A stretch of 63,478 nucleotides of DNA, filler included, from Folioceros fuciformis (GCA_049999805.1; 10 parts of 10 records of this genome joined end to end with filler, not necessarily neighbours in it); one strand, 5' to 3'. Numbered from the whole stretch's first letter, positions 13,063 through 52,386 are shown. Notes: generated from the sequence alone by a model not told the origin. A program made the numbers and translations.

Positions 13063-13123
13063 GGCGCCAATAGATGCATGGTGATGGCGGTACCACCTAG
13101 CCTATATAAAGGCTTGTACTTTA

Positions 13124-16069: not shown

Positions 16070-16169
16070 NNNNNNNNNNNNNNNNNNNNNNNNNNNNNNN
16101 NNNNNNNNNNNNNTTAATTAATTAANNNNNNNNNNNNNNNNNNNNNNNNNNNNNNNNNNNNNNNNNNNN
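16070..16169. other. Artificial contig spacer
   Basis: N44-TTAATTAATTAA-N44. Confidence 0.98.
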
Positions 16170-18206
16170 GGATGGTCCTGTTCATCCGTTCGGCCACACC
16201 ATTCTGGGGAGGAGTGTACGGGGCAGTCAATTCTCTCCTAATTCCCTTGGAATCACATAATGACTGGAAAGCCTTCGAAACATACTCTCCCCCATTGTCT
16301 GTCCTTAGACATTTCAGTCGCAGGCCAGACTGATTCTCCACAAGGGTGACGAACTTCTGAAACGCTGTCAGAACATCATCCTTTTTCCTCAAAGGATAAA
16401 CCCATACTTTGCGTGAGAAATCATCTATGAAAGTGACAAAATAGGATGCACCGCCTAATGATACAGTGGGCATATGTCCGCAAACGTCACTGTGAACCAA
16501 CTCAAGAGGTTTACTTTTGTGTTTACCTCTTGCTCCATGTGGTGACTTCGTCTGTTTCCATACAGACAGTGCTCACACATGGAGAAATCGGAGAAGTCAA
16601 AAGCAGGGACGTAACCAAAACGAGATAGTATCTTCATTCCTTTTTGAGACATATGTCATAACCGACTATGCCACAAGGAAACACTTGGCTATTCCGTTAC
16701 ACAAATCACATGATCCTTAAGAGTGGTTACTTGAAGTGAGTACAAAGTGCCACACTTCGATCCACGAGCTAACACAAGAGAACCAACAGGGTTTAGGGTG
16801 ATAGCTAACGTCATCCAACTGCCCTGCACTAATCATGCTTTTAGCCAACTTCAAAACATGCCTAACATCCTTCAGTATGAATGAAGATCCATTGTCGAAC
16901 TTCAACTGCACATCACCAACGCCTGCAATCTCGCATGCGTAGGTATTTCCAAGCCGTACACATCCTTTCTTAGTAGCATAATACGTGCTAAACCACTCCC
17001 TATGCGGAGTAACATGGAAAGATGCTCCAGAGTCAATTATCCAATTAGAGAAGAAGTGACTATCCACGGCTGTCAGTTGTGCAGAATCGAAGGAAGAAGA
17101 GATAAGAACATCTCCATCGTCAACAGAATTCACCTCGTTAGGCTTGGTACTCGGACTTGCCTTGTTGTCGCTTTGCTTCATCTCCTTTCCTTTGTCCTTC
17201 TTGAACTGTTCGCAGTCCTTCCTGATGTGACCCTTCTTGTGACAATGGTAACACTCAACATTGTTATGACTACGAGATTTACTACGGGAAGAACTTCGCT
17301 CCTTGTACTTCCCCTTTGAAGTGGACCTTCCTCTCACCATGAGGGCATTAGAACCTTTCGAAGGTTCCATATTCTTCCTGTTCACCTCCTCTGTTAACAG
17401 GCTACCTTCTACATTTACAGCGGTAAGACCACTAGTAGGAGTGGAATTACTCAGAGCTCTACAAAAGGTGTCCCAGCTCTCTGGTAATGTGACCAACAGA
17501 AACATAGCTCTCACGAAATCTGGAAACGAGATACCTTGAGATGAGAGCTAGCTGAAAATGGTATTGAACTTGTTTAGATGATCGGACATCCTCGTCCCTT
17601 CCTTCAACTTCAAGTCCACTAGTTGTTTCAACCAGTACACTTGAGAAGCCGCACTTTGCTTCTTGTACAGGTCACACAACTTCTACCATAGCTCGTAGCT
17701 TGTGGTCTTGTCTTTCACGTTGAAGTAGACCGACTTCGACAATGTTAGCATGATGGTAGACCTGGCAAGCTCATCTAGGTCCTGCCACTCATCCTGAGTC
17801 ATGCTAACGGGTTTCACTCCTAGCAACTTTATCGGCTTAATCTGCTTCTTCTATACTAGAACATTATACACTTGTTCTTTCTAGAACAGGAAGTTAGTAC
17901 CATCTAACTTCTCGATATTGAACATAACGTTTTCTGAGGACGCCATGTTTCAAAATCGATGCAAATCAACCAAAATGCTAGTTAGATACTGTCGAAATGT
18001 AATGTAGATTCTGTTACCCTCACTTTTGTTTTGAATCGGCTGTCCACAAGTCGACTCGACAGGCCTGAATCCTTCGATTGAGATCTCGCCGCCTCGTGGC
18101 CGGGATTCACCTAGCTTGCGCTCATGTCCCTCTCGTCACCCGTGGTGTCCGTCCTCCGGCGTTCGCGACGCTTTTTGGCTCGGCGATTCGTTGGCCAGGA
18201 TGCGTC
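16170..18206 (-). mobile_element. Copia family B: 5' UTR, gag (ATG 17946), protease, integrase; pseudogenised
   Basis: MASSENVMFNIEKLDGTNF, CYHCHKKGHIRKDC, WIIDSGASFH, LRTDNGGEY; several TAG stops. Confidence 0.93.
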
Positions 18207-19667: not shown

Positions 19668-20621
19668 TCAGTCGTCGTCGTCCCGCTGTTTCAGTAATGA
19701 AACAGGGGTGAAGTGTAGAGATTTAGAGAAACAACTACTGCACTGCTTGGCGAGGAATTGGAACCTCTTGTTGTCGAACTTCATCTTCTTCATCAACTTC
19801 TTTTGATGATAAACAAACAGCCTCTCATGCAAGTCCTGATAACTCGGGTCTGTAGCCGTGGCAAGGAAGTAGGCATATCCCGCCAAGAGGGCACCTGTTG
19901 TGACAAAAAATGCTATAGGCTCCATGACGTCCCACGAAAACTCCCAGAAGGTAAGGCGGAAGAAAACCAGGAAATGGCCAGTGAGAACCATCAATCCCGC
20001 GAACAAGTTCTTGCGCACCTTCTTGTGTGCCAGCGCATCAATCTGCTCCTTCATTTTCTGAAGGTTGTGGAACTCCTCCCTCCGTGGGTCGTCCTCGAGC
20101 GCCAGCGCCAGGGGCAGCGCCTTGGCAACCTGCCTGGCTACGGTCTCCGGGTGCAGAAACACCCGATCCCTAAACACAAACACCACTCCAGAGGAGTCCA
20201 AGGCTCGGACCATTTCTGCAGCCTCCTGCGGGTTCCTGGCCAGCCTCTCCGCCTCACACAAGCTCAACAGCTCAGGCAGGCTCATGTGCTCGCGAGTCTC
20301 CGCATGTAACCGGTGTTTGAGCGACGTGAGGTTCACATGCCTCAAAACCTGCTGCACCTCCTCCGCGGTCACTCGCGGCTCCCGGCACCCCACCTGAGTG
20401 TGCTCGCTATCCCCTTCCCCCTCGTCCCCGGAATTCTCTTGCGCCATTCCAGCCGTGTGCAGCCAGAAGGGCTGCTGCCCCCACCCGCAGGCCGACTGGC
20501 GCCATTTCGCTCCACTCACGCCGGGCTGCACCTGCCTCCGCGCCCCAAGCCTCTCCAGCGCCCGCCCAGAAGCCGCCCTCCAGAGCCAAATTCCTCTCAG
20601 ACACGCACTTTTGGCAGCCAT
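19668..20621 (-). CDS. MCU: Mitochondrial calcium uniporter family protein (intronless)
   Basis: RLTFWEFSWDVMEPIAFF pore motif between two TM helices, coiled coil, Arg-rich presequence-like N-terminus. Confidence 0.93.
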   Translation of the reverse strand: MAAKSACLRGIWLWRAASGRALERLGARRQVQPGVSGAKWRQSACGWGQQPFWLHTAGMAQENSGDEGEGDSEHTQVGCREPRVTAEEVQQVLRHVNLTSLKHRLHAETREHMSLPELLSLCEAERLARNPQEAAEMVRALDSSGVVFVFRDRVFLHPETVARQVAKALPLALALEDDPRREEFHNLQKMKEQIDALAHKKVRKNLFAGLMVLTGHFLVFFRLTFWEFSWDVMEPIAFFVTTGALLAGYAYFLATATDPSYQDLHERLFVYHQKKLMKKMKFDNKRFQFLAKQCSSCFSKSLHFTPVSLLKQRDDDD

Positions 20622-21899
20622 TCCTGCACATCACCCATCACCCAGAATCAGGCAACCCACCAAAACCCGAAAAGTCGACTCCGCCATTCCACCAGCGCAC
20701 ACCCATCGGCCGGGAAATGACAACCCAACCTCTGAGACTCAAGTGCGGACAGGACCCACAACCCACGCTGCTGCTATCGGTACGACAACAGCCAAGGCAA
20801 TTACAGCACCCACCCTAGTTCACTCCGATTCTTGGCACGCAAGCGCAAGATGCACAACGGCCACAACTGCAGCTGCCGACCTTGGCGGATCCGACGAGGC
20901 AGACAGGAGAAGAAGAGAAGCGCGTGAAGAAGCCCCCGGGCCAGGACGAGCGGGGCCCTTGACGCTCCTTCAGGGCCAAGGAGGGCTGGCTGGCTTCCTC
21001 ACACGCCTCTCCATGCTCCGCGTGCGCCACAGTCAGCTGGAGCCTGGGCGCCTTCCCCGACGCCCACCGGGTCCACCTGAGAGCGGCAACGGAAGGGAGG
21101 CAAGGAAAGGAGAAAGGATTTGATTCTCGTCTCCCAGTCCCAGACCTCAACGTCGGCTAGGGCAGGACCAAGCACAATTCCTGAATTCCCCTCACTTCCC
21201 ACACGGCTCTGCGGGACAGGAAGATACGCGCGGGGACCAAGCGAGACCCCGCTTGCTCTGCAGCTTAATAAGAAGCGCCAGAAGAACCCTGAATCTGCAT
21301 CTGCACCTGAGCCTTGTCTGCAACTGTGGCCAGAATCCGTTCTGTCAACGGGCTAGTTCGTTGCTGCCAGTTACATACTCGTCCACCAAATGCGTACGCC
21401 GCTCATTGGCCACGTCGCAGTCGTAATTTCCTCTGCCTTCGACTTTGCCGTTGGCGCGCTTGCCTATCGCCAAAAGGTAAAAGGTATAGTATTCGAACGA
21501 TAGAGTTTAGCCACATTTATGCTCCTCTCCTACGCATATAGCAGACATGGAGACACTGAATCTCGATAAAATACGTAAAGTACATACCGATAGACGACGG
21601 TGCCCACTTCATGAACCCTTATCTACGCCAGGCAGGCTAGGCTGATGTGTCGCCACTGACGTGTGAAGCTCAGCTGGTCACCTAGTCACCTGAGTATGTG
21701 GCATCGCCGTGGCAGGCCCCTTATTCTGGCCGCGTACAGGAGGAGTCGGTGCCCGTCCTCCGCTTCCAAGTTCCGAGCACGAACGTGTGGCGTGCGCGCA
21801 CATGCACGGAAGAGGTTAGGGCGCGATCACCAAACGTCACCTCACCTACACATAGTACTGGAACCACCACGCCAATCATGCTCGCTGTGCCAACTATTC

Positions 21900-23988: not shown

Positions 23989-24383
23989 GCTCCGCTCCCA
24001 CCGCCCGACTGGGGCGCGCGGCGCGGAGCTCCCTGGATTCCCGTCTACTCTTTCCCACCTCCCGCGTCCTGCTCCTGCTCCTGCTCCTCCTCCTTGCTCC
24101 TGCTTCCGCCAAATCCTTCGCCCACGCAGCGATGATTTCTGTCCACACGCTAACGGACGGAACAGCCTTGGACGTAAGCCAGGGTTTGAAAATAAGAAAC
24201 CCGTCAAGCCCTAACCGTGGTCAATAACCGGCCCGCATAAGGAAACCAAAATATAAATGTTTTTCTTTTGGGTTTCCGCCAGTCGGGTGTGGTCCCCCCG
24301 AAAACGAGCAAGCAAACGCCTCGGAAGCCAAAGGTGCCCCGCGTGAACGCACAAGCACCTGCAGAGCAAGCCAGGAAGCAGCA

Positions 24384-25393
24384 ATGGCGGACGTTCAGCA
24401 TCCCTTCTATCCGGCATCGTTAGATCTGCCAGGATTTGTGCCGCAGATGTTGTCCAGGGAATATATTTTGTCGTCCTTCGCTGCATTCTCCCTAGCTGTG
24501 GTGGTTCTTACATTCGCTTTCACAGGTTGCCGCGCATCGCTTCCCGATTCTGCATGTGCAAAACTATCTTGTTCCAGAGCCCTTGATTTGCTCACACGAT
24601 GTGCTGCTGCTAGGACAGGGAGATACAAGCATATCAGCATGCTGGAGCGCTTCATTGTATGCTGGTGGATGCTCACCGGGTTGATCCACACCATTTTGGA
24701 GGGATACTTTGTGTTCACTCCAAATTTCTGCAAGCTCAAGACTCCTGTTTTCCTAGCAGAGCTGTGTAAGCATCAATTTTCCTCATGAATGCCAGGTTTA
24801 ATAGATCTACATTGCTGGCAAGCATGCATGGACGGGACGGGACGGCGTTGGACTTATCGTGCTTCTCGAGGTTTTAAAACTATGCCGGCCTCGACGGAGT
24901 GACTTGAGAGTGTGTGGGTGTGCAGGGAAAGAGTATAGCAAGGGAGACTCACGGTATGCAGGCAGAGACCCTACCGTGGTCATTATTGAGGGGATCACGG
25001 CAGTGATTGAGGGGCCCTTATGCTTCTACGTCATGTGAGTTGTTGGCGTACCTGCTGCATCCCATTCCCATCACTATGACTGGCCTGTCGCTTATTCTTC
25101 GGCTACTTTCTCTGGTGTGTAGATACGCTATATTGTACCGGAAGGCGTGTCGTCACACATTGCAAATTGCGATTTGCTTAGGCCAGATCTATGGATGCAT
25201 AGTCTACTTCGGCACTGTAGTTTTGAACGGTGACGATTACTCGGCCCCTGGAGCGATCTACTTTTGGTTCTACTTTATAATCATGAACAACATCTGGGTC
25301 GTAGTTCCAACCCTGATTGCAGGCAGAGCATGGATCGCGATTAATAAGGCTGTGGATGCAGCCTCGGTTGTCAAACGCCACAAGGCAACCTGA
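24384..25393 (+). CDS. HYD1: 3-beta-hydroxysteroid delta8-delta7 isomerase (EBP family); exons 24384-24525, 24619-24765, 24926-25034, 25123-25393
   Basis: HPFYP, WWMLTGLIHTILEGYF, WKEYSKGDSRY, YFWFYFIIMNNIWVVVP; all introns GT-AG and in frame. Confidence 0.93.
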
Positions 25394-27230: not shown

Positions 27231-27330
27231 NNNNNNNNNNNNNNNNNNNNNNNNNNNNNNNNNNNNNNNNNNNNTTAATTAATTAANNNNNNNNNNNNNN
27301 NNNNNNNNNNNNNNNNNNNNNNNNNNNNNN
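27231..27330. other. Artificial contig spacer
   Basis: N44-TTAATTAATTAA-N44. Confidence 0.98.
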
Positions 27331-28568
27331 GTCCAACTTACAGAGTTCTATGGGGTATTGCAGGTCAGTCAAATGCTCTTAACATAGCAGCCTCTCTGAA
27401 ATTTGATGCTGCTGTCATAGAACGTGCCCGGCATTTGGTGAAACAATTATCACCATCCAAGCTTGGGGTTCGTGCAAGCGAGGTTATGGTACCGCTAGTG
27501 AAACAGCTTGATGAGCAACGTCAGCTGGTTAAGGGAGCTTCTGACGCTCTTGCCAATGCTCGCGACCTACACAGTCAGGTAAGGAAGTGTGGGGAAATAA
27601 TGGCCATCACTTCCGGTGTCAGGATTTCCTTCACCTCTCGACGCTGCAGTTCAATGACTAACTCCTAGTCCCTTTTTTGATGTTCAGCTGTTATCGCAGT
27701 TGGATGAGGCGGTAAAGCAGGAGGCGGCTCTAAAGCGAACGAGGTTGACAGTTCTCAATGAAAAGATTGCAAGTGGCAAACAGCGGATGGATAATGTGGT
27801 TCTCAGGTACCAGATGTCCTTACAAGGAGATGGACCAGACAACACATTGTCCATGCGAGATGCTCAGACTGCCATAGCCCAAATAGCTACAGAGCTTACT
27901 GCGGACTTCGACCCAGAACCACCCAGAGCAGCTGTCGGCACGTTGAGAGAAGCAGAGGTTCAAGCACCAGCTGTGGGATCCAAAGTGTATGTCCGACGGC
28001 TGGGGAAAGTGCCTGCCACTGTGGTTGAAGTCCTACCGGGTAGCAACTATATTTCGGTCCAGCTGGGTAGCATGAAACTCAGTGTGCGATCAGATGAAGT
28101 CTCGTACAGGATGGGTACTTCTGTCCCCCAAACTCCGGTTCAGAACAAGGTGAATTCATCAAGCCACAATTATGCTTTCACTCTTGTTGAGATTGTCTGT
28201 CTGGTGACGGGGGTTTGCAGTTGTTGAATCTGCTGTGTTTCGAACTGCAGCCAGTGAGGCGGCCGGATCTTCGATCTTCAGAGGAGCAACCTGGGAGCAA
28301 GGATGGTTCGCCCGCCTTCGGAGTTGCAGTGCAAACTTCGAAGAACACCTTAGATTTGCGTGGAATGCGAGTGGATGACGCGGAAAGGGAGTTAATCCTG
28401 GCTCTTGCTAGCAGGCCCCCCTTGTCAACGCTGTTCGTCATCCATGGTATAGGCACGGGTGCTGTCAAGGAGGCGGTGTTGAAAGTGCTGAGGAAGCACC
28501 CGTACGTTGCCAAGTATGAGGATGAGAGTACTCTCAATGCAGGATGCACAATCGTGTTTATCAAGTGA
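27331..28568 (+). CDS. MUTS2: MutS2-family endonuclease, 3' part with KOW-like and Smr domains; exons 27331-27578, 27688-28149, 28251-28568
   Basis: PTYRVLWGIAGQSNALNIA; LDLRGMRVDDA...VIHGIGTGAVK Smr motif. Confidence 0.92.
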
Positions 28569-29126
28569 GGCTTCTCGTCACAGTTTTTCCAATGGCCGTT
28601 TGCTGCCTCCATTAGGCACGCACTACAAACAATAACTAGCGCATGTTGAAATAGAGACGTTTTTTCTTCTGTTGCTCACACTTTTGGATGGAGGAGACGG
28701 ACAGCATTCCGAGAGCACTTGCATGTTCATCTGGGGTGATCTTGGGTTGGGAGGTCATGTGCACACTTGGTACTTGCTCAAGAGCAACCGTCCATTGAGC
28801 AAGATCCACTTGTCGACTGGGTTATGACATTTCTCGATGAACATCATGCTTGACTGATTGAGAATCAGGCAATTCAAAGCTGATCTGAAGCTGTACAGTT
28901 CGAAGTTCTAAAATGTTCATTGATCTATCTACTTCCGCTTGTGCAATTAAAAAACTTGCATACTTACTCGGTAGGTAGGAAGGTCCAAGAGTCGCTCTGG
29001 ATCTACAAAAGCTTTTACACACCAGGAAAGGGAACAGCAGGGTGGGTTGGGCCAGGGTGACGATCAGTGGTGCTTGAATCCAACAACTGGTAAAAAGACA
29101 AACTAGCCCGCGGAATCTCCACGCTT

Positions 29127-32100
29127 TCACTGCGTCATTTTGTCCCCAAGAGGCTGATGTATGTTGTTGCAAGCGCGTACGAAGCCATCCAGGTTGCTCT
29201 GACGGCGAGGAGAAGTGAAGGACATTTTTGCCAGCTGTGAGCTGGCAACAAGCTGCTGGGATGGCTGCTGGTCATCTGTTGCTACTTGCAGTGTTGCCTC
29301 ACGTCCATCCAGGACCTAACACCAACAACAGCCAGAGGAGGTTAGACCCCCAGAGAGAACAGAAGCAGAACACGGTACGGAAATCGTGGTATCTAAAGCT
29401 GTGAAGCGGCAAACCTGGCCCAAATTTTCCAGCTTATGCCGCACCATATCCCTGCATGCGGCAACATGATGTCAGAACTGCCTTTTACTCCGTCATGAGT
29501 TAGGGCGTTTTAGCTGTGCCATAAACTGCTTCAGCAAAGAAACTGGAGAGCAGATGCAAGAGTACCAGATAATGCCATCGATTGTATCAAGGGCGTGCAG
29601 GTAATAGACGTTCACCGCAGACTCCTGTACGAGATCATGAGAAGGGGAAACCTTACAGAACAGACTCTCAGATATAGATAAAGATAAGTACTGCAGACAA
29701 GAGTACCTGACCAATCCGATGTGCACGATCTTCAGCCTGCACCAAGTCTCCGGGAGTCCAGCTCATCTCAGCAAAGATTACAGTACTCGCCGCTGTAAGG
29801 GTCAAGCCAACTCCGGCTGCCCGAATCCCAAGCTGCCAGTCCAGCACATTATTACCGCTACAAAGGGATCACGTTTCTACAGTGCATTTGTGAGGGTTCC
29901 CATGTTGCTCACCACTGCTGCCTTCACGCGGTCCTCAGTTTGAAAATTTTCAACTAGCTTGTGCCGAGAGGATACTGGCGTGTTACCATCGATTCTAATG
30001 CACAGGACCTTTCTCTTCTGAAATGGTCAAAGCATAAAGTTTAGTACTTCCTGACACCAGTGACGTGACAACGCCGTGAATCCCAAATTGGATTTGGCAA
30101 ATGTTCGACTCGCTCACCTGCAAGAAGTCATGGATGCCATCCAACATGCTCATGTGGTGGGCAAAAATGAGGAACTTGCAGTCAGCCTGTGAGACCGTAG
30201 CAGACACATCACGCATTAGATGAAGGCTCCTTAAAGCCGGTAAGGTTGGCTACAATGAGCACGACAAGACACTGGACAAGACGAGAACCTCAAGAACTGT
30301 GGCAAGGTACTCCTGGACAGCTGGGATTTTTGCCACAGCTGACTCGGCATATATCTGGCCAAATAACAGATGTGAGTGTGGCAGCAATCGCTCTACAACG
30401 CAGAAACCAGAAACCTGGTTTGATCTGACAAGACCTTAGTCAACAGGTTGCGCTCTGCAAACTTCAGCTTCTCCACATCTTCCAGCCCCTGGGTATTTTG
30501 CATGCCTTCTTTCAGTCCCTTCAGCTGCAAAGCAGTCAATAATCTTGTTAAGCTCTATTCAAACAACCTTTGTTCACAAGACTAAAGCAAGTATCGCTAA
30601 CTCTAGCGCACTTCTTCATTAGGCATAGCATGAAAACTCAATGCCTGTCTCCCAACCTCATGAAAAAGGGATCGCAATTGCTTTGTGCTTTTCACATCGA
30701 CAGTAAGAAACACCTGCACAGCAAGAACAATAATCAGCACAAGAGAACGGGATTACATTGGTCGGATAGAGAAACTCGTCGAACACAAAACAATAGCTGT
30801 CTTCCCCAACCTGTTCCCGGCGTTTCCTTGGAAGTTGTGTCAGCACATCCTTCTTAAGCCTGCGGATCATTACAGTTGACTTGATCAACGCATGCAACTC
30901 CTCATGATTACTCGCTCCTTGCCAAGCCCCAAAAGCACCCTGCAACAAGAGATGAGCAATCTACGTACAGCACATGTACCTGACCAATTCACTGTGACAT
31001 CTTATACGAAACGAAGCAGGTGGGTGAGGAAGCCTTACGCCTTGGCAGTAGCGGTTGCCATACTCGCTTACTTCTCGATATACACTTGGGTACAGGGCTT
31101 CAAGCTGCTCATGCATTGAAGAATCAAAACCAAAAGTACCCCAGCCCCACTGATAGACTCACCTCAGTAACCCCATTGGCTGATTTGCAAAAATTGCAGC
31201 ATACCTGTTTGAAAAGCTCAATGGGCCGAGATAATGCAGGGGTTCCTGTCAAGAGCACAGCATACTTTGCTTTCTGTGTGCCACAAGAACAACAGTCATG
31301 GCAACTTCATCAGCCCACCAAACTGCTTCAGACACCACAAGGGGAAATCCAGCATCATCCAAAACAAACACACATTGATTGGATGCATGGATGCGTTAAC
31401 TTGAGCCATTCATGAATCTTGGTCATTCAAAAGTACTTCACGGCACGAAATCAGATGTATACTTGCAGTAGGGGTACACAAGCATTTGTTCTCTTCGCTT
31501 TTGCATTTTTCATGTAGTGAGACTCATCGGCAATAACTACCTGCCCAGTACAGTTGCAAAACGAAGCACATGAGAGGCACGGTTTCCATTCAAGCAGCCT
31601 TGTCCGGACAAGAAACAGGGTTAGATTGCTTCCGCTCATACTTTGAAATTCAAATTGACATGCTCATCCGCCAACTTTTGTGCAATATCATATGAGATAA
31701 TGTTGAATTTTCTGTCCAATCGGATGGCATGCTTTCCAGCTGACAGCACAATGTTGAAGCCATCAGGATTGGATCCCATTGTGCTGGACATCACGACCTG
31801 ATGGTGCCACATCAGCTTCAGAACTGCGTACAGAAACGCTTATTTATCCTACATTTTGAAACGCAAGAGAAGCTCTTACTGTAATCTGTGAACAGGAAAT
31901 GCGAAGCCACTGCTTTATCATCTGCAAGAAATCAGGAGGGACATGGAACACCGCTCAGAAGTCGTAAGCCTTTAAAGTTCAACACGAGCAAACCAAGTCT
32001 CGGTATGAAAGATACTAACTGCTGCCCAATGTATCCTCAACGCTGGCGGAACAATAATCAAGACTGGCCAGTCTTCCACAAGGCAGGAAGCAACGGCGAT

Positions 32101-35100
32101 TGCCTGCCACAGAACAGTAGCGGTTGAGCATCCTATCCTCCTAGACAGGGAGAGTTGGAGGGGAGTGTAGAGTTCAAATAGGTGCAATCCATGTCAAGTT
32201 CAGAGACGTTGAACCCATAAGCGATCTATATATACACCAAGACAGAAATGGCAAGATCAAACCTGCAAAGTTTTTCCTAAACCCATTTCGTCACCAATAA
32301 GTACCCTTCCCCCATGTTGCAATGCAAACCTAATGAGCAAACACCGTTATACTTCATAGTAAGGAAAAACATGAAAATCTGAAGACATGTGCACGCTGTT
32401 ATTAGGCAGCTAGGGAACAGAACAGACTGCAGAACAGGCCAGCACGGGTCAGGGCAGTTTGCTCACCTAACTCCCTCCTGCTGAAAAGGCATCAAAACTG
32501 CTTTCAGGTGTTCTGGAATGTTTGTGTACTTCTCTGCATCGGAGGATTCAACTCTTTACAAACAGGAGAAAAACGTTTGTTTGCCTCTTGACATGAATAC
32601 AAAGTAGGAGCAAAAATAGATTGCCCAAAAAAAAAAAAAGGTAGAAGCTAGAATAACTGCCTTCAAGGTTGGGAAGGGCTGCAGATGCTTGCACTGCACG
32701 GCGGACTATAGGTTCCAATGATAAGACCTGATGTGAGGAACAAAAGCCAGCCGAATGAAATGCTTCGAAATTTCAGATGAATAGGGAGTCCACAGTGCAC
32801 ATGGAAACTGATTTAGTACGCTGCCTACCGTCACATTCACGCCCTTCACATTTCCTAGCATTCTCTCAGCTTCTGCCAAAGAAGAGAGAGGGAACATCCA
32901 TGCACTGCAGACATGCCAAATGAAGATGCAGTAGCTGGTTAGTCCAACCCAAACAAATGAGACATTTCACGAAATTTCAAGATATTGTAAAAGTTTCAGT
33001 CTTACCGCCAATTTGTGTTCCAACTTGCATGAGGAATGTTTCGCATGGCAGCTGTGACATCCTGAAAGTGCAGGGCATCATTAAACATTCTAATTCAATG
33101 TTTTCTGAAAAAGTGAAAAGGAGACACATCACACACTTGCCTGTTGATACTCAAACCTTGCAATTATTTGACCACTGTTATGCAGCATTAACTTTACAGT
33201 GCACCTTCCCATAGAAGGAGCAACTTCATAATCCAGCATTAGCCGTCGCTTGCGACTGGGAGCTAACCGCTCTTGATGACCAAGACTTGGCTCTTCATGA
33301 GGTGACTTGTATGCACCTTGCATACTTGACTGAGTGTTATCTGCACAAGGAAATGCCATGTTGCAGATAGCCATAGACATGAACAGCAACGATGAGCATC
33401 GTATGAAAGGTTTAGTGACCAATCGTCACCATATCTCTCTTCACGCATGCATGGCATCTCCAAGGGAGGCACTGCGTCAATCTGGAAAACCAACAGGTGT
33501 TTGAGGGACTGCCACTTTCGGTGAAATTGCTCCAAGAAGTGAGGCAAGCATCAGAACAAGCCATTTTGAAATGGCGAACATGAGTAGACAATACTGATGA
33601 ACGCTAGCAGACTGATGGCCACGAAGAACACACATTTACCTGGACATCCACATCAGGCAGAGACCACAACAATTGTGCCGCTTCTGTCAAGGCAGAGGAC
33701 GGAAACTTCCATACTCTGCAGATCAAATGTGTTTGATGATCAAATCCTCAAGGTGTCACGGGGCTTCGACATAGGAGCAACAGGCATTCCTAAGATCTAA
33801 GAAAAGTGCACTGAGCTGTACAAAGTTTTGAAAATTCACACAAGGAACCTGTCTTCAGAATGCCATCGTGCAGAAGGGATGGTCCTCAAGGCAGCCACTA
33901 CATCCTGATGCAAGAGAAAGACGTCTAAGAGCATGATGTGGACAAGACCTCCCAATACATAACTCGAAAGTGCATGATCATATGCCAGTTTTATGACCAA
34001 AACTGAGCGAACTTGCGATTAATTGATAATGAGGTATAGAAAAACGGAATAGGACCTGTTGATAGTCAAACTTTGCTGCTATCTGGCCTTGGGCAGATTG
34101 CGAGAGGCTGACAGAGCAGCTGCACTTTTTAAAATACCCCAGTTGTGGAGGAGAATCTGAAACTGTCTGGGTAAGAGCGCTTGAGAATCCTGCAGTGTCT
34201 GCGGACAATGTGAGATAACCACCAATTAGCTAACTTAAACTGCTAAGCTCAATTTTCAGAAGCAAGGAAGGTGGACTACTCACCCACATCTCCAAAAACT
34301 TCTGGCAACTCCAGAGGAGGCACTGCTTCTATCTGAGGTTCATCAAGAAAGCCCACCCATTAGCAAATGCACTACTACTCAGCTCTACTCATGCAAGTCC
34401 GTTCCGACAGAGAACAAGCACCTGGATGTTCACAGATGCTTGTTGAAGTGCCTGCATGAGAGACGGAAACTCCTCTAGTGGGAACGTCCACACCCTGAGC
34501 AAAACAAATCAAGCATGAAATAGGGACCACCCGTGTATACTGGATGTGGCAGAGGCTTTCCGACAGAAATACAAAAGGAAAGTGAGGGGACATGGAAGTA
34601 CTTGTCACCGACATCCCATTTCCTTCCTGCAACAGATTGGTATGCCAGCTTCAGTGCCTGCAAGAAACATGAAGATCTGAACAAATCCGAAAGGTCCCAG
34701 GGAATTTCGGGCATGACTCAATATCCCCAACCTGATTGTATGGGCTTCGTGCTGCAATTACACCAGGCCCTACAATTAGAATTTCCACTTTCAGCGCTGA
34801 TGGACTTCCTGCAGGCTTCAACTTCCCAGGGGTTCCAGATAACTTTACAGGAGAGGCCTCAGAAACCTGCTGGGGTTTCAGGGGACTAGTTAGCTGTACC
34901 CTGTCCAGCACTGCCCACGGAACGCTACGTCAACTTGAGCACGAACAGATTTCTAGGAACAAACTTTCCACTCTAAAGCAAAGCAGAGAGCAAGCACCTG
35001 AACCCCGCAGATCATCGTCTGGTGGCCCGGTCAGTGTAAGCGGAGGTACCACGGTCAGCTGTACGACCAGGCCATACCCCATGTCAGACGATGCAATCAG

Positions 35101-35691
35101 GCAGGAAGGAAGAAAAGGAAAATATCTCGCAATCATAAAAATCATGTTCATCGTCCATACAGAGTCGATGGAGGAGGAGACAGAAGAAAATGCCACCCCT
35201 AGATGCCCTGAGCAAGCCAAAGGAAACGTCCACACCCTACGACAGCACAACAGAACTTAGCTCGGGCCCCAAAGAATGTAGCAGAGTGGAAAAATCGAGG
35301 CTACCAAAATGTACCTCCTCTGTTGATTCCACTCATGACCAGGAACCGACTTCAGCGCCTTCAGCACGTCCTGAAGGCCACAAATTCACACGATTCGTTC
35401 ACCTCAGCTGGGCACGACAACCTCAAGCTTCTGCCACGGCAAACATCCAAAGCCTACCTGAGAATACTGCGATTCCACCACAATTCTTCCAGTTCCAGGT
35501 ACATCATGGAACACCTTTACGGACACCCTCTTGCTATGCCCCCAGACTTTGCGCGGAGAGCTGTCAGGAGACAAGGAGGAGGACGCGGTGCTGGTGCTGG
35601 CTCGCCTCTCCGCAACCTGCTCAAGGGCACTCCTTTTCAACGAATCCAGCTCGGCCAAGGAAACGTCGTCCGTCCAGTCGTCTCCAGCCAT
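29127..35691 (-). CDS. CHR18: SMARCAL1/CHR18-like SNF2 annealing helicase, many exons, four N-terminal HARP-like modules (possible upstream ATG at 35856)
   Basis: [71 protein letters not shown]; most exons traced manually in frame to TGA 29127. Confidence 0.93.
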
Positions 35692-38131: not shown

Positions 38132-38231
38132 NNNNNNNNNNNNNNNNNNNNNNNNNNNNNNNNNNNNNNNNNNNNTTAATTAATTAANNNNNNNNNNNNN
38201 NNNNNNNNNNNNNNNNNNNNNNNNNNNNNNN
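38132..38231. other. Artificial contig spacer
   Basis: N44-TTAATTAATTAA-N44. Confidence 0.98.
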
Positions 38232-41116: not shown

Positions 41117-43251
41117 TCATTGAGGTGGATGACCTTTTTCCAGAGCAAGCTCACTGGGGCTGACGACGGAGGTCTCCACCTGCTTGTACCTGTACCTGGA
41201 AGCCAAGAAGAGGAAGACGATGAGATTCACAGCATCTGCGATGGCCAGGAACCAGTAGAAGTTATCCACGCGGGAGGAGTTGATGTTGGCCCCGACCCAC
41301 GCGTGATTCCCGTTCCTCGCCGAGAAGTGAGACGTGAGAGAGATGAAGCCCGTGCTGAGAAAGCTCCCAGCTCCCAGAGCTGACAAGTTCATGGCTGCAC
41401 CCACTGTGTGCATGTGGTCTGGGGTCTGATCGTAGAAGAAGTCGAATCCAGCCACTATGGCGAACACCTCGGAAACGCCCATGATAATGTACTGAGGGAG
41501 AAGTCTGAAGATGCTGAGAGGCAGCTTGGTGCGAGGATGAGATTCGAGGCCGTGCTCCCACACATACTGCAGCCTGTGCCCCTCCGTCAGAGCTGCGCAG
41601 ACCATGGAAAGGCAGCCGAACAAGAATCCGATTCCGAAACGCTGGAGGAGTGTGATCCCCCTGGGGTTGCCGGTGTACTTGCGGACAAAGGGCACGAAAA
41701 CTTTGTCGTAGAGGGGAAGGCCGATCATAACAGTGGCTTGGGAGAAGAACTGGAAGGTAGCTGGAGGAATGTGGAAGTGGGCGCCCAGCTTGTTGTCCAT
41801 GGTGCTGCCTTGCTTGGTGAAGAGAGTGTTGAGCTGGGTGTAAGTGGCGAGGTAGACCACCTGCGTGACCCAGATCGGGAGCGCCCCGATGAGCAGCTTC
41901 ACTTCTTCCACTTGTGTCACGGTGCAGACCTTCCAAGGGTTGCTCCTGTCGTCGCCAGTGGCCACGGTCGCCGCCTTGTCAAGGAATCTGGAGGGCGACA
42001 CAGTCAAGCCTTTTAAATTAGTACACGTTGATCTATGAAGCTTGCAAATGGCCTTCAAGAGGATAGGGACTGCCATTGACTCACGTGCAGGAGTCGGTGT
42101 GCAGCATTTGTCTCCTGTTAGCTTTGAGGTGCTTCCTGCCGGGCACTTCGTGCAGAAGCCGAGGGTCGTCAGGAACCGGGACCCTCCATTTCCGGAGTGC
42201 AGCAACCAGGACCTGGGCGACCTGGGTGAAGGGGCTGCCTTCCACCACCTGGTATCTGTACAGCCTGGTTCCCAAGAAGAAGATGCCAAGAGCGACAGCA
42301 AAGGCGACTGCGGGGATGCCATAGCCCCAGCCCCAGCCCACGAAATCCTGGATGTACACCACCACCGTGACGGATAGCACGATTCCCACAGCGATCATCG
42401 TAAACCACCAATTGAAGAAGGAATTTCTGAGCGGAGCCTCCTTTTCGTCTTCCTGATCAAATTGGGCGGCCCCCATGGAAGAAATTGACGGCTTCATAAC
42501 TCCCGACCCCACGGCCATGACGTAAAGCGAGAGGAAGAAAAATAGTCTTCTCCTTCCACCCACGTGCGTGCAGGGAATGCTGGAGTCGGCCAGGCAGCGG
42601 GGCCTCAACCAATCCACCGTGACGCTGCACACCAGCATGATGGTCCCCTGAGATCACCCCAAGTCCAGCACGGTTAGCTCGACCTGCCTTCCGAAGCCCT
42701 GGACATGGACAAAGGGCAGAAACATGCCACACGCACTCACAATCAGGTTGACGAAGCCAAACACTGCAATGGTGGTGTAGCGACCCCAAAATGCATCCGC
42801 CAAGAACGCCCCCGGAATGGAACAGAAGAAGACGCATCCCGACCAATTGTTGACGTTCTTGGCAGCCACCGCCAGGCCCTCTCCCAGCACCTCCGTCAAG
42901 TAAGTCACCAGATTCGAGGAAACGCCGTAGTAGCTCACCCTCTCTGTCACGTCGTTCCCTGATAATGCGCCAAATGTTGGTCTCAAACAATCAGCGAAGT
43001 ACATCCGTGAACATCGCATGGCCCTCAATAAACAAGTCATGAAATGAGACCGCACCCAGGAAGAAGTAGCAAGCCCTCCATCCTCCCGTGCTGGATTTCC
43101 TAGCAGGCCTGCCCCGGTGGTCCACAGAGCCATCCTCAGCAAATTCGGCGTGACCAGAATGCACAACTCGATGCACGCCATTCCCATCACCGGCTTCCAA
43201 GACTACCGAGTATGGCTTCACAACAGAAGGCTTGTGGCCAGTGCTCCCCAT
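41117..43251 (-). CDS. NPF: NPF (NRT1/PTR) family transporter; exons 43251-43056, 42958-42741, 42647-42085, 41987-41117
   Basis: STGGWRAC, TERVSYYG, GAFLADAFWGRY, SFFNWWF, GSPFTQVAQV, CTVTQVEEVK, FFYDQTPDHM, RVDNFYW. Confidence 0.95.
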
Positions 43252-46680: not shown

Positions 46681-48754
46681 TGACTCTGTTGATGATGAAG
46701 ATGTTCTTATATCTCTTCTTCCTTAGATTCTGCACAACTGACAGCCGTGGAGAGTCACTTATTCTCTAATTGGATAATTGACTCTAGAGCATCTTTCCAT
46801 GTTACTCTGCATAAGGAGTGGTTTAGCACGTATGATGCTACTAGGAAAGGATGTTTTCGGCTTGGAAATAACTACGCATGCGAGATTGTAGGCGTTGGTG
46901 ATGTGCAGCTGAAGTTCGACAGCGGGTCTTTATTTGTACTGAAGAATGTTAGGCATGTTCCGAAGTTGACCAAAAGCATGATTAGCGTAGGGCAATTGGA
47001 TGACGCTGGCTACCACTGTTGGTTTGGAGATCATTCTTGGAAGATCTCCAAAGGTTCTCTTGTGTTAGCTCATGGATCAAAGTGTGGCACTTTGTACTCA
47101 CTTTAGGTAACCACTATCAAGGATCGTGTGATTTGTGTAACGGAACAGCCAAGTGTTTCCTTGTGGCATTGTCGGGTAGGACATATGTCTCAAAAAGGAA
47201 TGAAGATCCTATCTTGTTTTGGTTACGTTCCTGCTTTTGACTTCTCCAATTTCTCCGTATGTGAGCGCTGTTTGTATAGGAAACAGACGAAGTCACCACA
47301 TGGAGCAAGAGGTAAACACAAAAGTAAACCTCTTGAATTGGTTCACAGTGACGTTTGTGGACCTATGCCTACTGTATCGTTAGGCGGTGCATCCTATTTT
47401 GTCACTTTCATAAATGATTTCTCACGCAAGGTGTGGGTTTATCCTTTGAGGAAAAAGAATGATGTTTTGACAGTGTTTCAGAAATTCGTCACCCTTGTGG
47501 AGAATCAATCTGGCCTCCGACTGAAGTGTTTAAGGACAGACAATGGGGGAGAGTATGTTTCAAAGGCTTTCCAGTCATTCTGTGATTCCAAGGGAATCAA
47601 GAGAGAATTGACTGCGCCGTATACTCCTTCCCAGAATGGTGTGGTTGAATGGATGAACAGGACCATCCAGGAGAGGATGCATAGTTTGTTGTCAAACTCT
47701 GGATTACCTGATGGATTTTGGGCAGAAGCAGTGGCTACTGCAATGCATCTTATTAAGAGATCTCCTAATAAGGCAGTGGATGAGCAGGTTCTAGAGGAGA
47801 TGTGGTCTGGAAAGAAGCCGTCATTCAAGCATCTACGAGTGTTTGGCTGTGAGGCATACTACCATGTTCCGAATGAATTTCGGGACAAGTTGGCACCCAA
47901 GTCCAAGAAATGTATTTTTCTTGGCTATAGTGACTCTGGTGAGATGGGATACCGTCTATGGGATCCAGAAGCTAGGAGGGTTGTTCGCAGCAATGACGTA
48001 TTTTTCAATGAGACCAAGATGCACAAGAAGCCTACTCCAACTGTGCAGGTACGACGGGTGGTCTTCCAAGAAGATGGACTTGACCGTCCCGCGCAGGTTC
48101 AACGTCGTGATGTGCAGGAACAAGTTCCTTCACTTGTAGAAGAGGAGAGAGTGCAACCAGCTCCGGTCGAGGCGCCAGTGCTTCGTAGGTCAAGAAGGAT
48201 TTCACGTCCTCCTGACAGGTATGTTGCATCTCTTGACTATGTCATGCTGATTAATTGTGGAGAGCCCTCTTGTTATCAAGAGGCCTTTTCAGTGATTGAC
48301 AAGGTCAAATAGGAGAAGGCGATGCAGTCGTAGATGGATTCGCTCCATGAGAACCAAACTTGGGAGTTGGTTCGGTTGCCTAGGGGCAAGAAGGCGTTGC
48401 CATGCAAATGGGTGTATAAGATGAAGAACATTCCCCATTATGGCAAACCCAAGTACAAGGCACGATTGGTTGCTAAGGGTTTTAAGCAATAGCAAGGTAT
48501 TGACTTTGATGAGATTTTCTCACCAGTTGTCAAAATGACCACCTTGTGATGTGTTCTTGGTCTGGTTGCAAGGAATGACATGGAGCTTGTCCAAATGGAT
48601 GTGAAGTCGGCATTTCTGCATGGTGATCTCCAGGAAGAGGTATACATGCAGCAACCGGAGGGTTTCATTGAGAAGGGCAAAGAGAATATGGTGTGCAGGT
48701 TAAAGAAAAGCCTTTATGGTTTGAAGCAGGCACCTAGGGAGTGGTATTACAAGT
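46681..48754 (+). mobile_element. Copia family B internal fragment (protease, integrase, start of RT), 5'-truncated and interrupted by another LTR
   Basis: WIIDSRASFH, LVHSDVCGP, LRTDNGGEY, LKKSLYGLKQAPREWY. Confidence 0.93.
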
Positions 48755-49395
48755 TGTGGAGTCCACATGACGAACAAATCCCTTGGAAAATGGTAGTGTT
48801 TGATTTTTTTGGATTTCTGATTGGATTTCGTAGAGAAGTGGTTAGAAGATTGGGCTAGATTAAAAATTAGATTAGTGGTTAGTGAATAGGGTCTAAGTAG
48901 GACGTGTGGTAAGAGGTCACGGGTCTAGGTTCCTCATCAAGCAGCACCCTAGCCGTTACCGGGAGGCCGGAAGTGCAACCCCCTAGGCGCGGGCGAGAGA
49001 AAGCGACCCGGCTGGCCGGTAGGGAGTCTAGGGAGGCCAAGGCTAGCGGCTGGCTAGGAGCTCCAAACGGCCGGGGCCGGATCCGGAAGCCAGGTAGCTG
49101 CCTGGCTACAGGACCCAAGCAGTCTAAGCAGCGAGCTGAGGAGAGTCGACCTGGCTACTTGGCCAGTCCACCCAACTAGGCAGTCGGTATCACGATTGCT
49201 AGGTAGGATCGATCATAGCAAACTTGAGCAAGGGAGTAGTGATCGTGCGTGAGCAAAACTTGAGGCAAGAACAATAAAAAAACGGTTATTGGAGTTCGCG
49301 CGACTTGGCGCATATGAAGTTTGATGAAACGGTTATTAACCGCCTCCTTAATAAGTCCTAATTAATACGAGTTGCTAATCTAAACACTTCCAACA
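48755..49395 (-). repeat. 3' LTR (about 640 bp) of a further element (family D) nested antisense in the family B RT; PPT at 49396-49407
   Basis: Minus strand reads GTTGAGTGGGGG then TGTTGGAAG...CTCCACA; the RT frame breaks at 48755. Confidence 0.75.
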
Positions 49396-49407
49396 CCCCC
49401 ACTCAAC

Positions 49408-49507
49408 NNNNNNNNNNNNNNNNNNNNNNNNNNNNNNNNNNNNNNNNNNNNTTAATTAATTAANNNNNNNNNNNNNNNNNNNNNNNNNNNNNNNNNNNNN
49501 NNNNNNN
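49408..49507. other. Artificial contig spacer
   Basis: N44-TTAATTAATTAA-N44. Confidence 0.98.
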
Positions 49508-49847
49508 GTCTTGAATTGACAGGAGTGGGGATGGAGTGAGACGAACGGCACTCAACTTTAGCTTACCGCACAACTAGAGATGGTTCGGAAGGCAAGACGC
49601 CCTAATTAGCCTAGTTGTTGTAGCCTGGGTTGTCGGTTTCGATCTCCGAATGCCGTAGTTCTTCTACGTTTCTTGCAACATAGGGATCGGACTGATAGTG
49701 CCTGAGAGAGCTGGCGTACGGAGACAACTCGAGGTCTCCTTGATGGGTCTGGAAGGTAGGGGGCCTTGGCGCGTTGGCCCCCTGATGAATAGGAGGGGAT
49801 CTAGTAGAATCAACAGAAGAAAACGATAGGAGATGGATGGAAAGGGG

Positions 49848-52386
49848 TGTAGGATTATTAAAGCCCAATGTGATTAGACTAATGTGTTTAGTCTAAGATT
49901 AATGTCTAGTTAAGTATCATTAGTTTAGATTAGCTTAGGCTAATCTATAGGAAGCTTAGGCTAATCTATAGGAAGCTTCTTGTGCAGCTTCCTGTGCGCT
50001 TCTTGTGAAGCTTCCTAGGGAGCTCTTCTAGAGGGTATAAATACCCCCTTGAGCTCCCTTGCTATTGAGACTCTATTATGAGAGTGTGACCTCTCTTTCT
50101 CCTTCTCTTTGCCTCTCCTCCTCTCCTCCTTCACCATGTAGTTTCTTCTAGCGATCCTACAAGTGGTATCAGAGCCTAGGTTGTGAAGCAAGGGTGATGG
50201 CTCTCGTTGCTGCGGACAAGGTGCACAAGGCGGCTTCTGCTGGGTAGGGTCTCCAACCCCCTTGTAGTGCGGAGCGGGAGTAGGAGTCAGAGACCCGGCC
50301 GCCGAGCGCAAGTGGGGCGCAGTGCGCCCAGGTGCTTGCCATCCCGCGGAGGGCGTTGCGAGACCGCAGGGGTGCGGGCACCCATGTAGTAAGTCTCGTG
50401 GTTGTGACAATGTTGAGTGTTACCATTGTCACAAGAAGGGTCACATCAGAAGGGACTGCGAGAAGTTCAAGAAGGACAAAGGCAAGGAGAAGAAGCAGAG
50501 TGACAACAAGGCAAGTCCGAATGTCAAGCGTGACGAGGTGAACTCTGTTGATGATGGAGATGTTCTTACCTCTTCTTCCTTTGATTCTGCACAACTGACA
50601 GCCGTGGAGAGTCACTTATTCTCTATTTGGATAATTGACTCTGGAGCATCTTTCCATGTTACTCCGCATAGGGAGTGGTTTAGCACTTATGATGCCATTA
50701 GGAAAGGATGTGTTCGGCTTGGAAATAACTACGCATGCAAGATTGCAGGCGTTGGTGATGTGCAGCTGAAGTTCGACAATGGATCTTCATTCGTACTGAA
50801 GGATGTTAGGCATGTTCCGAAGTTGACCAAAAGCATGATTAGCGCAGGGCAGTTGGATGACGCTAGCTACCATTGTTGGTTTGGAGATCATTCTTGGAAG
50901 ATCTCCAAAGGTTCTCTTGTATTAGCTCGTGGATCGAAGTGTGGCACTTTGTACTCACTTCAGGTAACCATTGTCAAGGATCATGTGATTTGTGTAACGG
51001 AACAGCCAAGTGTTTCCTTGTGGCATAGACGATTAGGACATATGTCTCAAAAAGGAATGAAGATACTATCTCGTTTTGGTTATGTCCCTGCTTTTGACTT
51101 CTCCGATTTCTCCGTGTGTGAGCACTGTTTGTATGGGAAACAGATGAAGTCACCACATGGAGCAAAAGGTAAACACAAAAGTAAACCTCTTGAGTTGGAC
51201 GTTTGTGGACCTATGCCCATTGTATCGTTAGGTGGTGCATCCTATTTCGTCACTTTCATAGATGATTTCTCACGCAAGGTGTGGGTTTATCCTTTGAGGA
51301 AAAAGGATGATGTTCTGACAGTGTTTCAGAAGTTCGTCACCCTTGTGGAGAATCAGTCTGGCCTACGACTAAAGTGTATAAGGACAGACAATGGAGGAGC
51401 GTATGTTTCGAAGGCTTTCCAGTCATTCTGTGATTCTAAGGGAATCAAGAGAGAATTGATTGCGTCGTATACTCCTCCCCAGAACGGTGTAGCTGAATGG
51501 ATGAACAGGACCATCCAGGAGAGGATGCGTAGTTTGCTGTCAAACTCTGGATTGCCTAGCGGATTTTGGGCGGAAGCAGTGGTTACTGCGGTGCATCTTA
51601 TTAACAAATCTCCTAATAGGGCTGTGGATGAACAGGTTCTAGAGGAGACGTTGTTTGGAAAGAAGCCGTCTTACAAGCATCTATGAGTGTTTGGCTGCCA
51701 GGGATACTACCATGTTCCAAAGGAGTTTCGGGACAAGTTGGCACCCAAGTCCAAGAAATGTATTTTTCTTGGCTATGGTGAATCTGGTGAGATGGGATAC
51801 TGTCTGTGGGATCCAAAGGCCAAGAGGATGGTTCGTAGCAATGACGCGTTCTTCAATGAGACCAAGATGCACAAGAAGCCTACTCCAACTATGGAGGTGC
51901 GACGAGTGGTTTTTCAAGAAGATGGATTTGACCGTCCTGCACAAGTTGAACGTCGTGATGTGCAGGATCAAGTTCCTCCCCTTGTAGAAGAGGAGAGAGT
52001 GCAACCAGCTCCGGTTGAGGCGCCAATGCTTCGTAGGTCAGGAAGGATCTCATGTCCTCCTGAGAGGTATGTTGCATCTCTTGATTATATCATGCTGATG
52101 GATTGTGGGGAACCCTCTTGTTACCAAGAGACCATGTCAATGACTGACAAGGACAAGTGGGAGAAGGCAATGCAGTCGCAGATGGATTCGCTCCATAAGA
52201 ACCAAACTTGGGAGTTGGTTTGGTTGCCTAGGGGCAAGAAAGCATTGCCATGCAAATGGGTGTATAAGATGAAGGACATACCCCATTATCGCAAACCCAA
52301 GTACAAGGCGCGATTGGTTGCTAAGGGTTTTAAGCAACAGCAAGGTATTGACTTTGATGAGATTTTCTCACTAATTGTCAAAATTA
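49848..52386 (+). mobile_element. Copia family B: 5' LTR 49848-50161, PBS 50164-50175, most of gag deleted, zinc knuckle-PR-IN-start of RT, truncated
   Basis: TGGTATCAGAGC; the UTR is joined to ...SKSRGCDNVECYHC; ORFs 50322-51686 and 51687-52397. Confidence 0.93.

What the first reader, a model, noticed from the sequence alone, without database searches (positions are those of the whole stretch)
32660..35530. SMARCAL1/CHR18 with four tandem HARP-like modules built from a repeated exon cassette
Seen: four repeats precede the ATPase, each with the same intron positions: (..[31 protein letters not shown]), (..[31 protein letters not shown]), (..[31 protein letters not shown]), (..[31 protein letters not shown]). 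The middle exon is exactly 56 nt each time (35315-35370, 34602-34657, 33849-33904, 33006-33061), and the first three repeats are followed by a VPPL exon. Established: vertebrate SMARCAL1 has two HARP domains that direct fork and annealing activity; as I recall, angiosperm CHR18 has one. Inference: lineage-specific expansion by exon-module duplication, all copies open and diverged, perhaps altering fork recognition.
Basis: partly seen in the sequence, partly recalled or inferred. Interest (0 to 1): 0.7.

Follow-up and report, generated by a model that had tools for sequence, protein, structure and literature searches.

The report
Plant SMARCAL1 with four HARP domains
This plant's DNA-fork-repair enzyme SMARCAL1 carries four spliced copies of a predicted DNA-binding domain, but three copies are already found in ferns, a clubmoss, conifers and Amborella, so only the fourth is likely a lineage-specific addition and the single copy of most flowering plants is likely a loss.

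Summary
Observation confirmed; interpretation mostly not. The minus-strand gene (35691-29124, 34 exons, 1021 aa) encodes an intact SMARCAL1/CHR18 with four HARP-like modules, each split by the same four introns. One RNA-like contig joins all 15 introns of exons 1-16. The multi-module state is not a private expansion. Of 24 other full-length orthologues scored, 12 have three modules (Amborella, Cryptomeria, Psilotum, Ceratopteris, Diphasiastrum, Closterium, others), 3 have two (Riccia, Nymphaea, one unnamed), 9 have one and none has four. Modules sort into three old classes, A, B and C. Window module 1 is A, 2 is B, 4 is C. Module 3 is the only extra: a C-type body with an A/B-type last exon, most simply an old tandem duplication of exons 8-11. 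The tree neither proves nor rejects this. Orthologue modules pass Pfam HARP and one folds like mouse HARP; the window's own modules were not folded. The host is likely a hornwort. What is new is the history: three HARPs likely ancestral in land plants, cut to one in core angiosperms. Function is untested.

The parts
29124..35691 (-). SMARCAL1/CHR18 coding region, 34 exons, 1021 aa
   Evidence: Gene model with AG/GT(GC) borders and open frame; introns joined by contig of run X1; 58-60% identity to angiosperm orthologues over about 600 aa
35692..35873 (-). 5' untranslated part covered by the RNA-like contig
   Evidence: Contig record 1-417 lies on 35873-35457; true start not shown by contigs
35602..35691 (-). 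Conserved N-terminal acidic/helical motif, candidate RPA-binding site (inferred)
   Evidence: Same motif starts the plant orthologues; helix 9-27 in the Ceratopteris model; rice CHR721 binds OsRPA1a (PMC9194907 passage); the binding site was not tested
35038..35532 (-). HARP module 1, class A (exons 1-4, aa 53-129); second helix possibly degraded
   Evidence: In class A clade 100/96; A/B/C profile scores 76/35/30
34312..34794 (-). HARP module 2, class B (exons 5-8, aa 182-252)
   Evidence: In class B clade 99/92; scores 37/67/31
33461..34124 (-). HARP module 3, the extra one: class C body (exons 9-11) with A/B-type last exon (exon 12)
   Evidence: Scores 44/35/70; segments 1-3 best to C, tail to A/B; tail 8 of 10 aa and 25 of 33 nt identical to exon 8
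32661..33209 (-). HARP module 4, class C, next to the ATPase (exons 13-16, aa 415-498); the one kept by all orthologues
   Evidence: Scores 20/28/94; 97 bits to the angiosperm module profile
35315..35370 (-). 56-nt exon, module 1
34602..34657 (-). 56-nt exon, module 2
33849..33904 (-). 56-nt exon, module 3
33006..33061 (-). 56-nt exon, module 4
33640..34332 (-). Exons 8-11: first copy of the inferred duplication unit
   Evidence: Inferred from segment classes and DNA identity
32829..33481 (-). Exons 12-15: second copy of the inferred duplication unit
   Evidence: Exon pairs 8/12 76%, 9/13 (last 66 nt) 62%, 10/14 59%, 11/15 58% identical; other module pairs 21-54%
29415..32533 (-). SNF2 ATPase (exons 17-33), all seven motifs searched for are present
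   Evidence: Motifs at aa 539, 647, 676, 739, 858, 892, 917; Pfam Helicase_C on exon 31, E 7.9e-9
29178..29201 (-). C-terminal PIP-box-like motif (QSNLDGFV), candidate PCNA site (inferred)
   Evidence: Sequence; resembles rice CHR721 QKTLDAYL, shown to bind OsPCNA (PMC8974069 passages)

Best explanation
This is an intact, spliced plant SMARCAL1/CHR18 gene with four HARP-like modules, of which three (classes A, B, C) are shared with other land plants and one (module 3) likely arose by an old in-frame tandem duplication of exons 8-11. Shown: exon structure, splicing, module classes, counts in orthologues. Inferred: unequal crossover in the phase-0 introns before the last exons of modules B and C copied [B tail + C body], giving a chimeric module 3 and leaving module 4 as the original C. 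Inferred function: module 4 is the ATPase-coupled fork-recognition domain, equivalent to vertebrate HARP2, and with the SNF2 motor would re-anneal and remodel stalled forks. Modules 1-3 hang on 35-55 aa linkers and would add DNA-junction binding or substrate range without being needed for basic annealing. The two-module (A+C) and one-module (C) forms of Riccia, Nymphaea and core angiosperms are likely losses, made easy because any four consecutive exons can drop out in frame.
For: Splicing: 15 of 15 introns in exons 1-16 joined by one contig. Census: 12 of 24 other full-length orthologues have three modules, 3 have two, 9 have one, 0 have four. Classes: A and B clades starred, window modules 1 and 2 inside them; leave-one-species-out assignment correct for 34 of 34 modules in each of segments 1-3. 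Chimera: module 3 segments 1-3 score best to C (BLOSUM means 1.74, 2.26, 1.86), its tail scores 1.24/1.21 to A/B and 0.02 to C. Its tail's best match among 60 other rows is the window's own exon 8 (8 of 10 aa), its body's best match is the window's own module 4 (46%), with rare shared residues such as an Asp found in 1 of 26 other C rows; third positions agree in 16 of 25 same-residue codons for modules 3/4 against 5-7 of 13-17 for other pairs. HARP identity: 8 of 8 three-module orthologues pass Pfam PF07443; best PDB sequence hit of the module profile is 4O66, E 2.9e-5; three beta-beta-alpha-beta-beta-alpha-beta domains in the Ceratopteris model; Amborella module A, pLDDT 84, top Foldseek hit 4O66. 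Only the ATPase-proximal HARP is needed for annealing in human SMARCAL1 (PMC4035279 passages).
Against: The module tree does not join modules 3 and 4: the free tree puts module 3 outside all land-plant C modules, and holding them together costs 3.9 log-likelihood units (AU p 0.27, not rejected, not shown; 67 columns). The identity margins are thin: module 3 is 46% to module 4 but 45% to Ceratopteris C; its tail is 7 of 10 to four class A rows; module 4 is closer to other species (51%) than to module 3. Tails of A and B cannot be told apart well (28 of 34). Introns show no similarity above background, so no breakpoint can be read from DNA. No moss and no second hornwort was sampled, and the 50% library hides cluster members. 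The Foldseek match is weak (E 5.4e-3; VIA Z 5.4, rank 10). Only one run, whose RNA nature is a guess, and contigs drop rare isoforms. No activity was measured.
Confidence: 0.68

Rival explanations
1. Four modules (A, B, C', C) are ancestral for land plants; this lineage kept all four and every other sampled lineage lost C'.
For: Free tree places module 3 as sister to all land-plant C modules (98/61, not starred). An internal module would naturally have an A/B-like tail. Introns are saturated. Losses of whole modules are common in the census.
Against: 0 of 24 other full-length orthologues, including Closterium and two unnamed alga-like proteins, show a fourth module. Best matches of both parts of module 3 are within the window's own gene. 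A fast-evolving copy tends to fall to the base of its clade.
Confidence: 0.2
2. One reading: all extra modules arose by lineage-specific duplication from a single ancestral HARP.
For: Identical intron positions and phases in the four modules; core angiosperms have one.
Against: Modules 1 and 2 are orthologous to first and second modules of ferns, conifers and Amborella. The same intron positions show in other species' read-through or cut gene models (P0304, P0193, P0194, P0191, P0282), so they are old, not a sign of recent copying.
Confidence: 0.03
3. The distal modules are not extra DNA grips but specialised or decaying domains: A and B bind a protein partner or a different nucleic-acid structure, and module 1 or 3 may be drifting.
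For: A and B keep class-specific residues across ferns, conifers and Amborella. Window modules have long end branches (0.48-0.81); module 1's second helix matches poorly. Modules are not strongly basic (K+R 5-8 against D+E 4-7).
Against: All four keep the W...W-x-F-P core that aligns with 4O66, open frames and exon lengths. Drosophila HARP, with one domain, fails to regress model forks that human HARP regresses (PMC4035279 abstract), which fits a DNA role for added modules.
Confidence: 0.25
4. The cassette is a splicing switch: isoforms with one to four modules are made by skipping four-exon blocks.
For: All 12 four-exon skips are in frame; two GC donors flank module 4.
Against: Only one contig was laid on the region and it includes every exon; no skipping joint was listed at min_share 1. 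Contigs cannot show absence.
Confidence: 0.07

Closest known systems
Vertebrate SMARCAL1 (HARP): RPA motif, HARP1, HARP2, SNF2 ATPase
   Same: HARP module directly before an intact SNF2 ATPase; module profile's best PDB hit is SMARCAL1 HARP 4O66
   Different: Four modules on long linkers rather than two adjacent ones (PMC4035279); no test here of whether plant A/B relate to vertebrate HARP1
Angiosperm CHR18 / rice CHR721
   Same: 58-60% identity over module 4 plus ATPase; same N-terminal motif; PIP-like C-terminal motif; same four-exon split of the C module (P0304)
   Different: One module (class C), below Pfam's HARP cut-off in 4 of 4 tested (12-16 bits); the rice paper lists only SNF2_N and HELICc domains, 24 exons, 747 aa (PMC8974069)
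Three-module orthologues of Amborella, Cryptomeria, Psilotum, Ceratopteris, Diphasiastrum
   Same: Modules A, B, C in the same order, orthologous to window modules 1, 2, 4
   Different: No module 3; about 900-960 aa against 1021 (the Diphasiastrum record, 829 aa, has no Helicase_C hit)
T4 UvsW N-terminal domain, XPB damage-recognition domain, T4 MotA C-terminal domain
   Same: Fold neighbours of the Amborella module A model (Z 7.0, 6.1, 4.4)
   Different: 8-13% identity; middling Z; different helicase families
Unnamed non-plant SNF2-like proteins with tandem HARP-like repeats (P0216, P0227, P0234)
   Same: Two to three HARP-like stretches, passing Pfam HARP; P0227 and P0234 also carry SNF2 domains
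   Different: About 31% ATPase identity to the window; origin unnamed; not A/B/C classes. They show that tandem HARPs are not unique to plants

Membership tests
SMARCAL1/CHR18 subfamily | Intact SNF2 ATPase, closest to CHR18/CHR721-type proteins | tested here: met
   Seven motifs present; 58-60% to angiosperm proteins, some named SMARCAL1-like; nests among land-plant orthologues
SMARCAL1/CHR18 subfamily | HARP domain immediately N-terminal to the ATPase | tested here: met
   Module 4 ends 19-29 aa before the ATPase start (aa 488-498 against 517); homologous modules pass Pfam PF07443 in 8 of 8 three-module orthologues. The window's spliced protein itself was not scanned against Pfam; four single-exon pieces gave no hit
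SMARCAL1/CHR18 subfamily | N-terminal RPA-binding motif | tested here: inconclusive
   A conserved N-terminal motif is shared with plant orthologues; its identity with the RPA site is inferred
SMARCAL1/CHR18 subfamily | ATP-driven annealing and fork remodelling | not testable with these tools
   Needs biochemistry
HARP domain (PF07443, PDB 4O66) | Four- to five-stranded sheet with two helices, W...W-x-F core | tested here: inconclusive
   Met for orthologues and the core residues are in all four window modules; the window's own modules were not folded, and the structural match is weak (E 5.4e-3)
ZRANB3/CHR14-like paralogue | Long C-terminal extension with HNH nuclease after the ATPase | tested here: not met
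   The frame ends about 95 aa after motif VI, within exon 34; no HNH family in Pfam scans of orthologues. ZRANB3 features from PMC8974069

The most novel reading that the evidence does not exclude
Land-plant SMARCAL1 ancestrally carried three functionally distinct HARP domains, kept with class-specific residues from ferns to Amborella, so the enzyme of non-flowering plants recognises or regresses forks differently from the one-HARP enzyme of crops. This likely hornwort added a fourth, chimeric HARP by exon-block duplication. Plants thus offer a natural series of one, two, three and four HARPs on the same motor, with which to settle what distal HARP domains do.
Probability: 0.3. Interest if true: 0.55.

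Novelty: new variant of a known kind. Interest (0 to 1): 0.33.

Why it matters
The role of the distal HARP in vertebrate SMARCAL1 is unclear: it is dispensable for annealing, yet the one-HARP fly enzyme fails to regress model forks (PMC4035279). Plant orthologues with 1, 2, 3 and 4 modules on a 55-68% identical ATPase make the effect of module number testable. It also corrects the view from Arabidopsis and rice: their single HARP is likely the reduced state. The four-module form itself is a modest variation on a three-module norm.

Tried and rejected
Pfam on four single exons of the module region: no hit; each HARP is split over four exons, so this is uninformative. Foldseek and VIA on the 902-aa Ceratopteris model listed only ATPase matches; the single-module model was needed. 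ESM Atlas gave only sub-0.9 leads (HARP 21% of members, XPB_DRD). No run on record as RNA was listed; the one listed run behaved as spliced RNA. A 233-nt unspliced contig at 31250-31482, depth 3.2, is pre-mRNA or DNA and was not used. Intron-to-intron similarity: 24 comparisons scored 10-19 against background mean 13.6, max 24. Assembly artefact rejected: modules are only 23-43% identical, and the contig matches without listed mismatches. P0057's second hit is a split of one module, not a second. P0225 (4 stretches) and P0246 (7) are not plant SMARCAL1. Whether other HARP-module copies lie elsewhere in G000 was not tested; only the helicase exon was searched (one hit at 100%, next 58%). Literature: searches for SMARCAL1 + HARP domain + CHR18, + plants + orthologs and + Physcomitrella/Marchantia returned 0 papers; searches listed none whose title or abstract start deals with HARP number in plants, and none of the 30 listed contains 'SMARCAL1'. 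The library lacks most subscription papers, so this is not proof of absence. PMC11429910 is withdrawn and was not used. Earlier scan findings: none returned. For the tree, 14 of 61 module rows were dropped beforehand (fragments, two near-duplicate conifer-like proteins, four angiosperms).

Full report
1. Observation. I built a 34-exon model from 35691 to 29124 that gives an open 1021-aa frame. Each module is cut by four introns in the same phases: an exon with linker and two strands (phase 1 to 0), the 56-nt exon (0 to 2), a 73-76-nt exon (2 to 0) and a 49-67-nt tail exon (0 to 1). The fourth module has the tail exon too (32727-32661). The only run listed (RNA is the tool's guess) has one contig that skips 15 of 15 introns between exons 1 and 16 and, of 33 joints found over the whole gene, the 15 shown in the ATPase half. 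Its record coordinates fit the model, and fixed three of my first-guess borders. A short-read contig shows each junction, not a single molecule, and drops rare isoforms.

2. Identity. The ATPase motifs are intact. Module 4 plus ATPase is 58-60% identical to angiosperm proteins over about 600 aa, and all four modules hit their single N-terminal module. The helicase exon has one exact place in G000 and the next hit is 58%. The ATPase tree places the protein among land plants, outside the fern plus seed-plant clade and unresolved against the liverwort and lycophyte rows (quick tree). G000 has two matches over the cut-off to LCIB, on one contig, a gene reported in hornworts and no other land plants (PMC8075897, passages). 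The host is therefore likely a hornwort; this is an inference.

3. Are they HARP domains? Angiosperm single modules score only 12-16 bits on Pfam HARP (4 of 4 below the cut-off of 25). Three-module orthologues pass in 8 of 8; of eight further orthologues six pass, while Nymphaea and P0249 do not. A profile of nine modules from other species finds SMARCAL1 HARP 4O66 as best PDB sequence hit (E 2.9e-5; next, RRP6 at 0.007) and scores the window's modules at 60-73 bits. AlphaFold on the Ceratopteris orthologue gives three domains of the same topology at pLDDT about 70-90 on disordered linkers (whole model only 59). Amborella module A alone (pLDDT 84) has 4O66 as top Foldseek hit, weakly (E 5.4e-3); in VIA it ranks tenth (Z 5.4, rmsd 1.8 over 51) behind UvsW and XPB domains. 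The window's own modules were not folded.

4. Is it a lineage-specific expansion? Mostly no. Among 125 proteins over 550 aa from the first two searches, mostly legumes and other rosids, 123 have one module, one has a split hit and one has three; that one is Amborella. Searching with its first two modules found seven more, named as Cryptomeria, Psilotum and Ceratopteris or unnamed. A profile search of 1.84 billion representatives (751 hits at E 0.001, best 150 shown) added Riccia, Closterium, Diphasiastrum, Nymphaea, Pteridium, Adiantum and XP_024531873.1 (I recall that accession as Selaginella moellendorffii, no call shows it). Of 30 proteins scored, one is the window and five are fragments; of the other 24, 12 have three modules, 3 have two, 9 have one, none has four. 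The 9 are eight core-angiosperm-type proteins and one unnamed distant protein. Modules fall into classes A, B, C by position (A 100/96, B 99/92). Window module 1 is A, 2 is B, 4 is C. Riccia and Nymphaea have A+C; core angiosperms have C only. With more divergent rows added, the A and B clades lose their stars (89/80, 90/79). Closterium's two distal modules are each other's sisters (99/95), so algal arrays may have separate histories. Gene models that read through or stop at introns show the same intron positions in an angiosperm-type C module (P0304), Adiantum and Diphasiastrum B, and Nymphaea C: indirect evidence that the cassette structure is old.

5. Where module 3 came from. Cut at the exon borders, its first three segments score best to class C and its tail to A/B (the method assigns 34 of 34 known modules correctly for segments 1-3, 28 of 34 for tails, confusing only A with B). 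DNA identity is highest for exon pairs 8/12 (25 of 33), 9/13 (41 of 66), 10/14 (33 of 56) and 11/15 (44 of 76). One tandem duplication of exons 8-11, with breaks in the phase-0 introns before the tail exons, explains all of this. Rare shared residues and third-position agreement point to a duplication within this lineage. Against: the tree does not join modules 3 and 4 (AU p 0.27), identity margins are one or two residues, and introns are saturated. I put lineage-specific origin at about 0.7 and ancient retention at 0.2.

6. Mechanism. In human SMARCAL1 the region from HARP2 to the end of the ATPase suffices for annealing, HARP1 is not required, and the one-HARP Drosophila enzyme anneals but fails to regress model forks (PMC4035279, abstract and passages). 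Rice CHR721 binds OsRPA1a (PMC9194907, passages) and OsPCNA through a C-terminal PIP-like motif (PMC8974069, passages); the window has counterparts of both ends by sequence. I infer that module 4 couples fork recognition to the motor and that modules 1-3 add binding or substrate range. Since core angiosperms keep only C, A and B are not needed for the basic job; since A and B stay recognisable from ferns to Amborella, they are probably under selection. None of this was measured.

7. Novelty. A known enzyme with a known domain in a higher copy number. Tandem HARP-like repeats also occur before distant SNF2 proteins. I found no paper describing HARP number in plants in ten searches, in a library that lacks most subscription journals. 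Papers seen only as passages: PMC9820626 (no mention of HARP), PMC9194907 (none), PMC2684548, PMC9371921, PMC3902923, PMC4035279, 10.64898/2026.07.25.740665 (74), PMC8974069, PMC8075897. No supplements were read; domain figures in plant Snf2 surveys could bear on the novelty claim.

8. Verdict. New variant of a known kind. Interest 0.33.

Noticed in passing
window 27658-28560, + strand: 3' end of a MutS2-like gene (Pfam MSSS, E 9.8e-8; Smr-like end by recall) converging on SMARCAL1. The 6999-nt contig runs on past 28800, which suggests overlapping 3' ends.
   Followed up: partly
window 33141 and 32661, - strand: Two GC-AG introns, both in module 4 (after its first and its last exon).
   Followed up: partly
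proteins P0188 (Riccia), P0342 (Nymphaea): Both have A+C: module B appears to have been lost independently in a liverwort and a water lily.
   Followed up: partly
protein P0189 (Closterium): Two distal modules are sisters of each other, and about 300 low-complexity residues separate them from module C.
   Followed up: partly
proteins P0210, P0216, P0217, P0225: Unnamed, prokaryote- or phage-looking proteins (by recall) with three or four tandem HARP-like repeats; three end at what looks like the start of an SNF2 ATPase.
   Followed up: no
G000:C1919:3950-4891 (L011, L012): LCIB-family gene pieces over the Pfam cut-off.
   Followed up: partly
window 1715-17547, 47107-53514, 60607-62288: Many broken copia-like retroelement frames (label recalled from the translations, not tested).
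   Followed up: no
window 19668-20630 (-), 24228-24788 (+), 41117-43202 (-): Frames resembling a mitochondrial calcium uniporter, an EBP-type sterol isomerase and an NRT1/PTR transporter (labels recalled, not tested).
   Followed up: no
window, nine places such as 27231-27330 and 38132-38231: Paired 44-base N runs with 12 bases between them; none lies within the gene.
   Followed up: no
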